Part shown: piece after piece, positions 37,144 to 54,900 of the stretch
Position numbering within the stretch: the stretch's first letter is position 1
Layout: each line of letters opens with the position of its first letter
Source: the human T2T-CHM13v2.0 reference genome, Homo sapiens
NCBI RefSeq assembly: GCF_009914755.1
Contig: NC_060939.1
Strand: one strand, 5' to 3'
DNA: 64,000 nucleotides
The notes under the pieces: model-generated
What the model was told of the DNA's origin: nothing
The model's input: only the letters and a program-made list of their open reading frames with translations
Databases searched by the model: none
Program-made: the position numbers and the translations under genes

Positions 37144-40100
37144 GATTATTTGTTTGTTCGTATTTACTTTTTTTTTATTATTAGTATACTTTAAGTTTTA
37201 GGGTACATGTGCACAACGTGCAGGTTAGTTACATATGTATACATGTGCCATGCTGGTGCGCTGCACCCACTAACTTGTCATCTAGCATTAGGTATATCTC
37301 CCAATGCTATCCCTCCCCCTCCCCACAACCCACAACAGTCCCCAGAGTGTGATGTTCCCCTTCCTGTGTCCATGTGTTCTCATTGTTCAGTTCCCACCCA
37401 TGAGTGAGAATATGCGGTGTTTGGTTTTTTGTTCTTGCGATAGTTTACTGAGAATGATGATTTCCAATTTCATCCATGTCCCTACAAAGGACATGAACTC
37501 ATCATTTTTTATGACTGCATAGTATTCCATGGTGTATATGTGCCACATTTTCTTAATCTAGTCTATCATTGTTGGACATTTGGGTTGGTTCCGAGTCTTT
37601 GCTATTGTGAATAATGCCGCAATAAACATATGTGTGCATGTGTCTTTATAGCAGCATGATTTATAGTCCTTTGGGTATATACCCAGTAATGAGATGGCTG
37701 GGTCAAATGGTATTTCTAGTTCTAGTTCCCTGAGGAATCCCCACGCTGACTTCCACAATGGTTGAACTAGTTTACAGTCCCACCAACAGTGTAAAGGTGT
37801 TCCTATTTCTCCACATCCTCTCCAGCACCTGTTGTTTCCTGACGTTTTAATGATCGCCATTCTAACTGGTGTGAGATGGTATCTCATTGTGGTTTTGATT
37901 TGCATTTCTCTGATGGCCAGTGATGGTGAGCATTTTTTCATGTGTTTTTTGGCAGCATAAATGTCTTCTTTTGAAAACTGTCTGTTCATGTCCTTTGCCC
38001 ACTTTTTGATGGGGTTGTTTGTTTTTTTCTTGTAAATTTGTTTGAGTTCATTATAGATTCTGGATATTAGTCCTTTGTCAGATGAGTAGGTTGCGAAAAT
38101 TTTCTCCCATTTTGTAGGTTGCCTGTTCACTCTGATGGTAGTTTCTTTTGCTGTGCAGAAGCGTTTTAGTTTAATTAGATCCCACTTGTCTATTTTGGCT
38201 TTTGTTGCCATTGCTTTTGGTGTTTTAGACATGAAGTCCTTGTCCATGCCTATGTCCTGAATGGTAATGTCTAGGTTTTCTTCTAGGGTTTTTATGGTTT
38301 TAGGTCTAACGTTTAAGTCTTTAATCCATCTTGAATTGATTTTTGTATAAGGCGTTAAGGAAGGGATCCAGTTTCAGCTTTCTACATATGGCTAGACAGT
38401 TTTCCCAGCACCATTTATTAAATAGGGAATCCTTTCCCCATTGCTTGTTTTTGTCAGGTTTGTCAAAGATCAGATAGTTGTAGATATGAGGCGTTATTTC
38501 TGAGGGCTCTGTTCTGTTCCATTGATCTATATCTCTATTTTGGTACCAGTACCATGCTGTTTTGGTTACTGTAGCCTTGGAGTATAGTTTGAAGTCAGGT
38601 AGTGTGATGCCTCCAGCTTTGTTCTTTTGGCTCAGGATTGACTTGGCAATGCGGGCTCTTTTTTGGTTCCATATGAACTTTAAAGTAGTTTTTTCCAATT
38701 CTGTGAAGAAAGGCATTGGTAGCTTGATGGGATGGCATTGAATCTGTAAATTACCTTGGGCAGTATGGCCATTTTCATGATATTGATTCTTCCTATCCAT
38801 GAGCATGGAATGTTCTTCCATTTGTTTGTGTCCTCTTTCATTTCATTGAGCAGTGGTTTGTAGTTCTCCTTGAAGAGGTCCTTCACGTCCTTTGTAAGTT
38901 GGATTCCTAGGTATTTTATTCTCTTTGAATCAATTGTGAATGGGAGTTCACTCATGATTTGGCTCTCCGTTTGTCTATTATTGGTGTATAAGAATGCTTG
39001 TGATTTTTGCACATTGATTTTGTATCCTGAGACTTTGCTGAAGTTGCTTATCAGCTTAAGGAGATTTTGGGCTGAGACGATGGGGTTTTCTAGATATACA
39101 ATCATGTCGTCTGCAAACAGGGACAATTTGACTTCCTCTTTTCCTAATTGAATACCCTTTAGTTCCTTCTCCTGCCTAATTGCCCTGGCCAGAACTTCCA
39201 ACACTATGTGGAATAGGAGTGGTGAGAGAGGGCATCCCTGTCTTGTGCCAGTTTTCAAAGGGAATGCTTCCAGTTTTTGCCCATTCACTATGATATTGGC
39301 TGTGGGTTTTTCATAAATAGCTCTTATTATTTTGAGATACATCCCATCAATACCTAATCTATTGAGAGTTTTTAGCATGAAGGGCTGTTGAATTTTGTCA
39401 AAGGCCTTTTCTGCATCTATTGAGATAATCATGTGGTTTTTGTCTTTGGTTCTGTTTATATGCTGGATTACATTTATTGATTTGCGTATGTTGAACCAGC
39501 CTTGCATCCCAGGGATGAAGCCCACTTGATCATGGTGGATAAGCTTTTTGATGTGCTGCTGGATTCGGTTTGCCAGTATTTTATTGAGGATTTTTGCATC
39601 GATGTTCATCAAGGATATTGGTCTAAAATTCTCTTTTTTGGTTGTGTCTCTGCCAGGCTTTGGTATCAGGATGATGCTGGACTCATAAAATGAGTTAGGG
39701 AGGATTCCCTCTTTTTCTATTGATTGGAATAGTTTCAGAAGGAATGGTACCAGCTCCTCCTTGTACCTCTGGTAGAATTCGGCTGTGAATCCATCTGGTC
39801 CTGGACTCTTTTTGGTTGGTAAACTATTGATTATTGCCACAATTTCAGATCCTGTTATTGGTCTATTCAGAGATTCAACTTCTTCCTGGTTTAGTCTTGG
39901 GAGAGTGTATGTGTCGAGGAATTTATCCATTTCTTTTAGATTTTCTAGTTTATTTGCATAGAGGTGTTTGTAGTATTCTCTGATGGTAGTTTGTATTTCT
40001 GTGGGATCGGTGGTGATATCCCCTTTATCAATATTTATTGCATCTATTTGATTCTTCTCTTTTTTCTTCTTTATTAGTCTTGCTAGCAGTCTATCAATTT

Positions 40101-51905: not shown

Positions 51906-54900
51906 TTTTATATATATATATATTTTTATTATACTTTAAGTTCTAGGGTACATGTGCACAACGTGCAGATTAGTTACGTATGTATACATGTGCCATGCTG
52001 GTGTGCTGCACCCATTAACTCGTCATTTACATTAGGTATATCTCTTAATGCTATCCCTCCCCCCTCCCCCGACCCCACAACAGGCCCCAGTGTGTGATAT
52101 TCCCCTTCCTGTGTCCAAGTGTTCTCATTGTTCAATTCCCACCTATGAGTGAGAACATGCAGTGTTTGGTTTTTTGTCCTTGCAATAGTTTGCTGAGAAT
52201 GATGGTTTCCAGCTTCATCCATGTCCCTACAAAGGACATGAACTCATCATTTTTTATGGCTGCATAGTATTCCATGGTGTATATGTGCCACATTTTCTTA
52301 ATCCAGTCTATCACTGTTGGACACTTGGGTTGGTTCCAAGTCTTTGCTATTGTGAGTAGTGCTGCAGTAAACACATGTGTACATGTGTCTTTAGAGCAGC
52401 ATGATTTATATTCCTTTGGGTATATACCCAGTAATAGGATGGCTAGGTCAAATGGTATTTCTAGTTCTAGATCCCTGAGGAATCGCCACACTGTCTTCCA
52501 CAATGGTTGAACTAGTTTACAGTCCCACCAACAGTGTAAAAGTGTTTCTATTTCTCCACATCCTCTCCAGCACCTGTTGTTTCCTGACTTTTCAATGATC
52601 GCCATTCTAACTGGTGTGAGATGATATCTCATTGCGGTTTTGATTTGCATTTCTCTGATGGCCAGTGATGATGAGCATTTTTTCATGTGTCTGTTGGCTG
52701 CATAAATGTCTTCTTTTGAGAAGCGTCTTCTTTTGAGAAGTGTCTGTTCATATCCTTCGCACACTTGTTGATGGGGTTGTTTTTTTCTTCTAAATTTGTT
52801 TGAGTTCTTTGTAGATTCTGGATATTAGCCCTTTGTCAGATGAGTAGGTTGCAAAAATTTTCTCCCATTCTGTAGGTTGCCTATTCACTCTGTTGATAGT
52901 TTCTTTTGCTGTGCAGAAGCTCTTTAGTTAAATTAGATCCCATTTGTCAATTTTGGCTTTTGTTGCCATTGCTTTTGGTGTTTTAGACATGAAGTCCTTG
53001 CCCATGCCTATGTCCTGAATGGTATTGCCTAGGTTTTCTTCTAGGGTTTTTATGGTTTTAGGTCTAACATGTAAGTCTTTAGTCCATCTTGAATTAATTT
53101 TTGTATAAGGTGTAAGGAAGGGATCCAGTTTCAGCTTTCTACATATGGCTAGCCAGTTTTCCCAGCACCATTTGTTAAATAGGGAATCCTTTCCCCATTG
53201 CTTGTTTTCGTCAGGTTTGTCAAAGATCAGATAGTTGTAGATGTGTGGTATTATTTCTGAGGGCTCTGTTCTGTTTCATTGGTCTGTATCTCTGTTTTGG
53301 TACCAGTACCATGCTGTTTTGGTTACTGTAGCCTTGGAGTATAGTTTGAAGTCAGGTAGCGTGATGCCTCCAGCTTTGTTCTTTTGGCTTAGGATTGACT
53401 TGGCAATGTGGGCTCTTTTTTGGTTCCATACGAACTTTAAAGTAGTTTTTTCCAATTCTGTGAAGAAAGTCATTGGTAGCTTGATGGGGATGGCACTGAA
53501 TCTATAAATTATCTTGGGCAGTATGGCCATTTTCACGATATTGATTCTTCCTATCCATGAGCATGGAATGTTCTTCCATTTGTTTGTGTCCTCTTTTATT
53601 TCATTGAGCAGTGGTTTGTAGTTCTCCTTGAAGAGGTCCTTCACGTCCCTTGTAAGTTGGATTCCTAGGTATTTTATTCTCTTTGAATCAATTGTGAATG
53701 GGAGTTCACTCATGATTTGGCTCTCCGTTTGTCTATTATTGGTGTATAAGAATGCTTGTGATTTTTGCACATTGATTTTGTATCCTGAGACTTTGCTGAA
53801 GTTGCTTATCAGCTTAAGGAGATTTGGGGCTGAGACGATGGGGTTTTCTAGATATACAATCATGTCATCTGCAAACACGGACAATTTGACTTCCTCTTTT
53901 CCTAATTGAATACCCTTTATTTCTTTCTCCTGCTTGACTGCCCTGGCCAGAACTTCCAACACTATGTGGAATAGGAGTGGTGAGAGAGGGCATCCCTGTC
54001 TTGTGCCAGTTTTCAAAGGGAATGCTTCCAGTTTTTGCCCATTCACTATGATATTGGCTGTGGGTTTTTCATAAATAGCTCTTATTATTTTGAGATACAT
54101 CCCATCAATACCTAATCTATTGAGAGTTTTTAGCATGAAGGGCTGTTGAATTTTGTCAAAGGCCTTTTCTGCATCTATTGAGATAATCATGTGGTTTTTG
54201 TCTTTGGTTCTGTTTATATGCTGGATTACATTTATTGATTTGCGTATGTTGAACCAGCCTTGCATCCCAGGGATGAAGCCTTCTTGTCCATGGTGGATAA
54301 GCTTTTTGATGTGCTGCTGGATTCGGTTTGCCAGTATTTTATTGAGGATTTTTGCATCGATGTTCATCAAGGATATTGGTCTAAAATTCTCTTTTTTGGT
54401 TGTGTCTCTGCCAGGCTTTGGTATCAGGATGCTGCTGGACTCATAAGATGAGTTAGGGAGGATTCCCTCTTTTTCTATTGATTGGAATAGTTTCAGAAGG
54501 AATGGTACCAGCTCCTCCTTGTACCTCTGGTAGAATTCGGCTGTGAATCCGTCTGGTCCTGGACTTTTTTTGGTTGGTAAGCTATTAATTATTGCCTCAA
54601 TTTCAGAGCCTGTTATTGATCTATTCAGAGATTCAACTTCTTCCTGGTTTAGTCTTGGGAGGGTGTACGTGTCGAGGAATTTGTCCATTTCTTCTAGATT
54701 TTCTAGTTTATTTGCGTAGAGGTGTTTATAGTATTCTCTGATGGTAGTTTTGTATTTCTGTGGGATCGGTGGTGATATCCCCTTTACTATTTTTTATTGC
54801 GTCTATCTGATTCTTCTCTCTTTTCTCCTTTACTAGTCTTACTAGCAGTCTATCGATTTTGTTGATCTTTTCAAAAAACCAGCTCCTGGATTCATTGATT

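What the first reader, a model, noticed from the sequence alone, without database searches (positions are those of the whole stretch)
38540..54548. Apparent gene conversion between two different-subfamily L1s 14.76 kb apart
Seen in sequence: the L1s at 37144-41335 and 51906-55478 differ at many sites in their 3' UTRs and outer ORF2. Yet 39181-39522 is identical by eye to 53939-54280 (342 bp), and ~38540-39790 / 53297-54548 shows patchy near-identity. Both share substitutions absent from the L1 ORF2 consensus as I recall it: LNRLG (K>R), IYEKP (D>E), IIVNG (L>V), LFHIV (N>H), FTIDSK (A>D), LYSKA (Y>S) and YESS (A>S). Each element has its own flanking duplication, so they are independent insertions rather than a segmental duplicate. 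Inference: repeated ectopic gene conversion, meaning these copies have paired with each other.
Basis: partly seen in the sequence, partly recalled or inferred. Interest (0 to 1): 0.75.

Follow-up and report, generated by a model that had tools for sequence, protein, structure and literature searches.

The report
Neighbouring L1 copies swapped DNA patches
Two unrelated jumping-gene (L1) copies 15 kb apart in introns of the Parkinson's gene VPS13C share near-identical patches, likely because repair copied about 1 kb from the older into the younger, and nearby L1 copies elsewhere in the genome show the same excess of shared rare changes, which likely means such local swapping is common.

Summary
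Confirmed. L1 copy A (37176-41335) and copy B (51921-55477) differ by 7.1% and 5.9% in the flanks but 2.0% in 38541-39790, with 342 identical bases. They share five alleles absent from the comparison panel; no outside copy carries two of the four probe words, so a sub-lineage is excluded. In trees A groups with young L1s in the flank and as B's sister, outside the young clade, in the tract: the transfer ran B to A. A has few private changes in the tract (2 of 974 vs 31 of 2280), so it post-dates A's insertion. 'Repeated' is likely but unproven. The locus is not unique: L1s sharing a rare allele lie within 250 kb of each other about five times more often than a cross-allele control (25 vs 4.6 expected), in both orientations, mostly without duplication. 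Best reading: non-allelic gene conversion between neighbouring L1s, a known process; the L1-wide distance signal was not found in print. Reads and ape genomes were not available.

The parts
37176..41335 (-). L1 copy A, 5'-truncated, young lineage (L1PA3-like label recalled, not tested); acceptor
   Evidence: 3.3-4.0% from its closest genome copies in the 3' flank; inside the young clade at 100/99; young state at 36 of 39 diagnostic sites outside the tracts
51921..55477 (-). L1 copy B, 5'-truncated, older lineage (L1PA5/6-like label recalled, not tested); donor
   Evidence: outside the young clade; old state at 35 of 39 diagnostic sites outside the tracts; 16-bp target duplication at 51890 and 55479
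38796..39108 (-). Tract T2 in A, derived from B 53554-53866; left edge lies between 38747 and 38796
   Evidence: old state at 4 of 4 diagnostic sites; rare shared alleles 38930, 38968, 38977; A+B sisters 97/91
39109..39180 (-). Unconverted gap in A between the two main tracts
   Evidence: 7 differences in 72 bases; A holds the young-panel majority at 39109, 39166, 39178, though none passes the strict diagnostic cut
39181..39792 (-). Tract T3 in A, derived from B 53939-54550; holds the 342-bp perfect match 39181-39522
   Evidence: 0 A-only and 6 B-only differences in 612 bases; old state at 4 of 5 diagnostic sites; A+B sisters 100/95
38538..38602 (-). Short patch T1 around shared allele 38580 (B 53337); direction unknown
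   Evidence: allele word in 33 of 12,029 genome copies, among them A, B and a third L1 about 82 kb from B
53554..54550 (-). Donor stretch in B (ORF2 reverse-transcriptase region)
   Evidence: coordinates mapped; frame
51963..52003 (-). Young-type patch in B's 3' end (sites 51972, 51998); possible reverse transfer from A or from the adjacent inverted L1 at 50924-51637
   Evidence: young state where 6 of 6 old-panel copies have the old state; both A and that neighbour carry the young state
41350..41655 (-). Alu joined to A's 5' end; the 16-bp duplication at 37120 and 41656 encloses both
   Evidence: sequence, duplication search
42961..49639 (-). Six consecutive VPS13C exons between A and B, 606 nt, in frame
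   Evidence: gene table in the finding; length and frame

Best explanation
Copy A carries about 1 kb of copy B's sequence in two tracts, likely put there by non-allelic gene conversion well after A inserted. Shown: the mosaic, B as the source among the copies searched, direction B to A, and fewer private changes in the tract than in A's flanks. Inferred: a break or nick in A was repaired in the germ line using B, 14.76 kb away on the same chromosome or its sister or homologue, without crossover; the copying stopped at or skipped clusters of mismatches; it happened at roughly a quarter to two fifths of A's age. Inferred, weaker: more than one event, some in the other direction or with a third neighbour. 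The same process likely acts on L1 neighbours genome-wide out to about 250 kb. No function is implied.
For: Divergence dip and 342-bp run beyond permutation and control pairs. The only 100% matches among 40 scored of 1643 candidates are A and B; next 98%. Five shared alleles rare in the panel, against 0-2 in 1223 of 1225 control pairs. No outside carrier is on two probe lists; 8 of the 11 outside carriers of the 38968+38977 word were fetched and none has 38580G, 38930T or (where covered) 39681A. Tree switch. A holds the old state at 8 of 9 diagnostic sites inside T2+T3 and at 3 of 39 outside. A-only changes 2 of 974 vs 31 of 2280, p = 0.0017; B's total is unchanged, p = 0.25. Relative age 0.23 (0.08-0.49) or 0.38 (0.18-0.69) of A's. 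A second pair, 13.9 kb apart on C1, 6.5% diverged, has an identical run of at least 192 bases with four rare shared alleles. Tract sizes fit the 250 bp mean (CI 63-1000) for non-allelic conversion (10.1101/135152, passages).
Against: One genome only: no reads, no other human haplotype, no ape orthologue. The old-lineage panel is thin in the tract (3 to 8 copies per site). T3 has 6 B-only and 0 A-only differences, which fits later mutation in B or patches that were skipped; if skipped, the date is wrong and could be far more recent. One control pair shares 15 rare alleles (L012/L024), unexplained. The copies were about 94% alike, below the 96% floor reported for LINE-LINE crossovers (PMC4344489, passages). 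B has the young state at 4 of 31 diagnostic sites in its 3' part, so B is itself not a pure donor.
Confidence: 0.82

Rival explanations
1. Two unequal crossovers: an A-B crossover duplicated the 14.76-kb interval, a later one removed the extra copy and left B sequence between the two crossover points.
For: A and B are direct repeats; the six exons between them are in frame (606 nt), so a transient duplicate may have been tolerated; it would leave B-type sequence in A.
Against: One round gives one tract, whereas there are two split by a native gap plus small patches; needs two rare events; 10 of 31 close same-allele pairs elsewhere are inverted, where this route does not apply.
Confidence: 0.06
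2. A was born chimeric: its new cDNA paired with neighbouring B during insertion.
For: Such chimeras are recalled from cell-culture work (Gilbert 2005; not held; seen only as a reference line). 35 of 2267 full-length L1s were called recombinant in PMC13192797 (passages).
Against: The tract should then be as old as the rest of A; A-only changes are about six times rarer in it (p = 0.0017).
Confidence: 0.04
3. RNA-templated repair: both copies lie in sense within the VPS13C transcript, B upstream, so RNA or cDNA holding B could have patched A.
For: Direction B to A matches transcription order (gene table).
Against: Inverted pairs also share alleles genome-wide (10 of 31); B seems to have received a young patch; no test here separates RNA from DNA donors.
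Confidence: 0.04
4. Assembly or polishing artefact, or an event private to the CHM13 cell line.
For: Could not be tested; zero A-only changes in T3.
Against: The tracts hold 2 A-only and 8 B-only differences, a native gap and 94%-identical flanks; a four-change cluster in B is unique in the genome; similar pairs occur elsewhere.
Confidence: 0.03
5. A and B both descend from a recombinant L1 sub-lineage that carried these alleles.
Against: No outside carrier is on two lists; A and B belong to different lineages outside the tract.
Confidence: 0.01

Closest known systems
Distance-dependent gene conversion between neighbouring Alus (Aleshin and Zhi 2010, as summarised in PMC6598467, parts 1-2 of 4 read, and PMC8230782, passages)
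   Same: Detected by shared non-diagnostic mutations between nearby copies; mosaics of subfamily alleles; old-to-young transfers also reported (12 cases in PMC8230782).
   Different: Here L1, tracts of 0.3-0.6 kb, a 14.76-kb gap, and an excess of sharing out to about 250 kb, whereas the Alu range is given as about 10 kb.
Non-allelic gene conversion in human gene duplicates (10.1101/135152, passages)
   Same: One-way tracts of a few hundred bases.
   Different: That estimate used duplicates under 5% diverged; these copies are independent insertions about 6% apart.
L1-to-L1 conversion in single cases and cell assays (locus NCLI34 in PMC1920257, passages; Tremblay 2000 and Burton 1991, reference lines only)
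   Same: An internal L1 segment replaced from another L1 on the same chromosome.
   Different: Here the donor, the direction and a relative age are assigned, and a genome-wide distance test is added.
LINE-LINE non-allelic homologous recombination (PMC4344489; PMC9675761; 10.1101/2020.07.02.163816; passages)
   Same: Same substrate: nearby, similar L1 pairs; proximal pairs are enriched in somatic data.
   Different: Those are crossover products (deletions, duplications, inversions); this is copy-neutral. The transfer has lifted 1.25 kb of the pair from about 94% to 98%, above the 96% floor in PMC4344489.

Membership tests
Non-allelic gene conversion | Donor and acceptor at distinct loci of separate origin | tested here: met
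   Different flanks, 5' ends and lineages
Non-allelic gene conversion | Bounded tract of raised identity with a switch in tree position | tested here: met
Non-allelic gene conversion | Donor-private alleles present in the acceptor and no better donor | tested here: met
   similarity search scored only 40 of 1643 candidates, pattern counts are whole-genome
Non-allelic gene conversion | One-way, non-reciprocal transfer | tested here: met
   A and B both hold old states in T2+T3; B did not take A's young states there, bar one shared young site at 39640
Non-allelic gene conversion | No crossover or copy-number intermediate | not testable with these tools
   End products of a duplication-deletion cycle look alike in one genome
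Non-allelic gene conversion | Unconverted ancestral state in an outgroup or another haplotype | not testable with these tools
   No ape or second human genome held
Concerted evolution (recurrent conversion) | Several events of different age or direction | tested here: inconclusive
   Separate tracts and a reverse-type patch, but tract ages do not differ
Insertion-time L1 chimera | Tract as old as the element | tested here: not met
   2 of 974 vs 31 of 2280
Segmental duplication | Shared flanks and uniform identity | tested here: not met
   Alignment is confined to the L1s and identity is uneven
Named L1PA subfamilies | Match to Dfam or Repbase consensus diagnostics | not testable with these tools
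   No repeat library; young and old are defined from genome copies only

The most novel reading that the evidence does not exclude
Primate L1 copies routinely exchange short patches with L1 neighbours up to about 250 kb away, in either orientation and across subfamilies, far beyond the 10-kb range reported for Alu; a sizeable share of apparent private mutations in L1s are copied from neighbours (54 of 294 rare-allele carriers sit in local clusters). The VPS13C pair is a strong case, part of a small local network with a third L1 82 kb away, and its ratchet towards identity primes an in-frame loss or gain of six VPS13C exons. Shared alleles would then be a fossil map of germ-line chromatin contacts.
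Probability: 0.55. Interest if true: 0.72.

Novelty: new member of a known kind. Interest (0 to 1): 0.5.

Why it matters
The locus is a clean natural case of L1-to-L1 conversion with donor, direction and relative age. It shows that copies 6% apart can recombine, and it has made a 342-bp perfect match between direct repeats around six in-frame VPS13C exons, a predicted substrate for deletion or duplication that exon-dosage screens in Parkinson's disease could look for (no such variant found in the papers checked). The wider signal, if it holds after duplications are masked, gives a simple assay for the rate and reach of ectopic repair in the germ line, and means L1 ages and subfamily trees are blurred by local exchange.

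Tried and rejected
Sub-lineage and segmental duplication: rejected. Shared rare alleles between A or B and the two other young L1 fragments in the window: none, bar one site in a C-run. A template for B's four-change cluster at 54281-54288: none of 9 bases or more in the window, no other genome copy within 1 mismatch. A difference in age between T2 and T3: not significant. A recalled PRDM9-like 13-mer: 2 matches in 37000-55600, neither in a tract. The control was flawed (its panel held old elements and the probe hits themselves) and was redone. The probe spans a B-only change, so B is absent from its list. One probe chosen outside the tract gave no cluster (0 of 22), as did the list (0 of 11). 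VPS13C is not named in PMC9675761 (text and 5 supplements searched, one scanned file not; I did not go through its 51 chr15 places by coordinate) or PMC4344489 (main text); PMC11370542 reports only a whole-gene duplication. Tremblay 2000, Myers 2002 and Gilbert 2005 are not held.
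Full report
Observation. Copy A (37176-41335) and copy B (51921-55477) are minus-strand, 5'-truncated L1s that align over 3564 columns at 94.3%. The stretch 39181-39522 equals 53939-54280 in all 342 bases. Divergence is 7.1%, 2.0% and 5.9% in the 3' flank, the tract region 38541-39790 and the 5' flank. No permutation of 20,000 reached a run of 342, and among 446 panel pairs with flank divergence of at least 5% the lowest tract divergence was 3.1% and the longest run 181. 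The region is somewhat conserved in general (median tract-to-flank ratio 0.79, against 0.32 for A/B), and closely related young pairs do reach runs of 340, so the run is informative only given the flanks.

Independence of the copies. B has a 16-bp target duplication. For A the 16-bp duplication encloses A and an adjoining Alu; I read this as A inserted in the Alu's tail (inference). The alignment does not extend beyond the L1s.

Panels. All comparison copies come from the same genome: 28 chosen by likeness to the 342-bp tract, 28 by likeness to A's flank (one further locus dropped as overlapping an earlier one), 7 of the 40 hits to B's flank, and 8 of the 11 outside carriers of a probe word. 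Each similarity search scored only 40 candidates. Subfamily names are recalled; no repeat library was available.

Is it a sub-lineage? Five shared alleles (38580, 38930, 38968, 38977, 39681) are at or under 3% of the panel; of 1225 control pairs, 1086 share none, 126 one, 11 two, one three and one fifteen. Exact genome counts of the probe words are 13, 20, 33 and 73; the 38580 word is 33 of 12,029 copies of that site. No outside carrier appears on two lists. The 8 fetched carriers lack the other alleles, and 7 of them are about 10% diverged older elements.

Direction and shape. In the flank tree A lies in the young clade (100/99) and B outside; in the tract tree A and B are sisters (100/98) outside the young clade (92/94), and T2 and T3 each show the pairing alone (24 rows chosen by me). 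At sites that separate the young and old panels A is young at 36 of 39 outside the tracts and old at 8 of 9 inside. So B donated to A. T2 (38796-39108) and T3 (39181-39792) are split by 72 bases with 7 differences. The 342-bp run is bounded by clusters of differences on both sides; the right one is four B-only changes in 8 bases, unique in the genome. A lone shared allele at 38580 lies among native A sites. B has two young-type sites at 51972 and 51998 that A and the adjacent inverted L1 both carry. A third L1 82 kb from B carries 38580G and shares a second rare allele (38138) with B; unlinked copies share 0-2 such alleles with it, so this is only suggestive.

Timing. A-only changes are 2 of 974 in T2+T3 and 31 of 2280 in the flanks (p = 0.0017), while B-only plus shared changes match B's flanks (p = 0.25). 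The transfer therefore followed insertion, at 0.23 (0.08-0.49) to 0.38 (0.18-0.69) of A's age. With a recalled age near 10 million years for such elements that is a few million years. If the B-only sites in T3 are skipped patches rather than later mutations, it is younger. T2 and T3 do not differ in age, so one complex event is possible; complex multi-switch events are seen in sperm reads (PMC13600919, passages; allelic).

Is the pair special? The probe lists showed other close pairs, so I added three probes from A-only or B-only alleles outside the tract. On C1-C12, 25 of 6444 same-allele pairs lie within 250 kb, against 12 of 16,992 pairs from different lists (expected 4.6; p = 4e-7); at 1-5 Mb the counts are 30 and 30.3. 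The three outside probes alone give 21 of 5222 against 1 of 4508 (p = 2e-5); most of that comes from the list. Counting clusters instead of pairs, 21 remain (p = 2e-5 against the uncollapsed control). Left out: A and B, two of three copies in a C11 tandem array, two C13 rows and the 36 unlisted matches. Of 31 close pairs over all lists, 21 are direct and 10 inverted; 54 of 294 carriers are in clusters; two of seven lists have none. I fetched 8 of these pairs: seven are 5.3-8.8% diverged, one is 2.5% and may be a duplication; flanks were seen for three and differ in all three. One pair, 13.9 kb apart on C1, has an identical run of at least 192 bases with four rare shared alleles. The others share one to three alleles, each of which could be chance. 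Duplications were not masked genome-wide, and the control does not cover regional bias in one mutation type.

Mechanism. Shown: mosaic, source, direction, post-insertion timing. Inferred from established knowledge of homologous repair: a lesion in A repaired on B without crossover, the choice of B favoured by proximity. Rivals are a duplication-deletion cycle (0.06), an insertion-time chimera (0.04), an RNA donor (0.04), an artefact (0.03) and a sub-lineage (0.01).

Comparison with print. Conversion among nearby Alus within about 10 kb is established (PMC6598467; PMC8230782), as is conversion among gene duplicates. For L1 I saw one single-locus case (PMC1920257), a recombinant screen of full-length copies (PMC13192797) and crossover studies. 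Searches showed no genome-wide distance analysis of L1 conversion, and no report of this locus; the library lacks most subscription papers, including Aleshin and Zhi 2010, which I did not read, so absence is weak.

Consequence. Six VPS13C exons, 606 nt and in frame, lie between the copies. The tract region is now 98% identical, above the 96% floor reported for LINE-LINE crossovers. A 14.76-kb deletion or duplication is predicted to be possible; none was found in the papers checked.

Verdict. Real, well supported, a new case of a known process. Interest 0.5, most of it from the genome-wide lead.

Noticed in passing
G000:C1:93236249 and C1:93250190 (L079, L080): Two L1s 13.9 kb apart, 6.5% diverged, with an identical run of at least 192 bases holding four rare shared alleles and a second 97-base run: a second likely conversion pair.
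   Followed up: partly
L078 (G000:C15:59901100-59905600): Third L1, 82 kb from B, inverted, about 1.6 kb; shares rare alleles 38580 (with A and B) and 38138 (with B).
   Followed up: partly
G000:C6:86555424-86974597: Four L1s within 420 kb carry the same rare allele; two fetched have different flanks and 6.7% divergence.
   Followed up: partly
window 54281-54288: Four B-only changes in 8 bases at the edge of the perfect tract, unique in the genome, no local template found.
   Followed up: yes
window 50924-51637: Short young L1 with an inverted 5' part and a 13-bp target duplication, opposite in orientation to B and about 270 bases from it.
   Followed up: partly
window 41706-42575: Another 5'-truncated L1 of about 0.8 kb with a 17-bp target duplication, right after the Alu.
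   Followed up: partly
window 52708-52724: 17-base tandem duplication inside B.
   Followed up: no
window 38680-40956: A keeps a 758-codon open stretch of ORF2, broken by a one-base gap near 38728.
   Followed up: no
G000:C11:43091406-43107812: Three L1 matches spaced about 8,192 bases apart, a tandem array.
   Followed up: no
L012, L013, L024: L012 and L013 (C9) are identical over 1244 bases; L012 and L024 (C22) share 15 rare alleles.
   Followed up: no
G000:C5:79332322 and C5:79423544 (L087, L088): L1 pair 91 kb apart, 2.5% diverged, seven rare shared alleles; duplication or long conversion.
   Followed up: partly
window 43484-44062: Self-similar stretch at about 70% identity.
   Followed up: no
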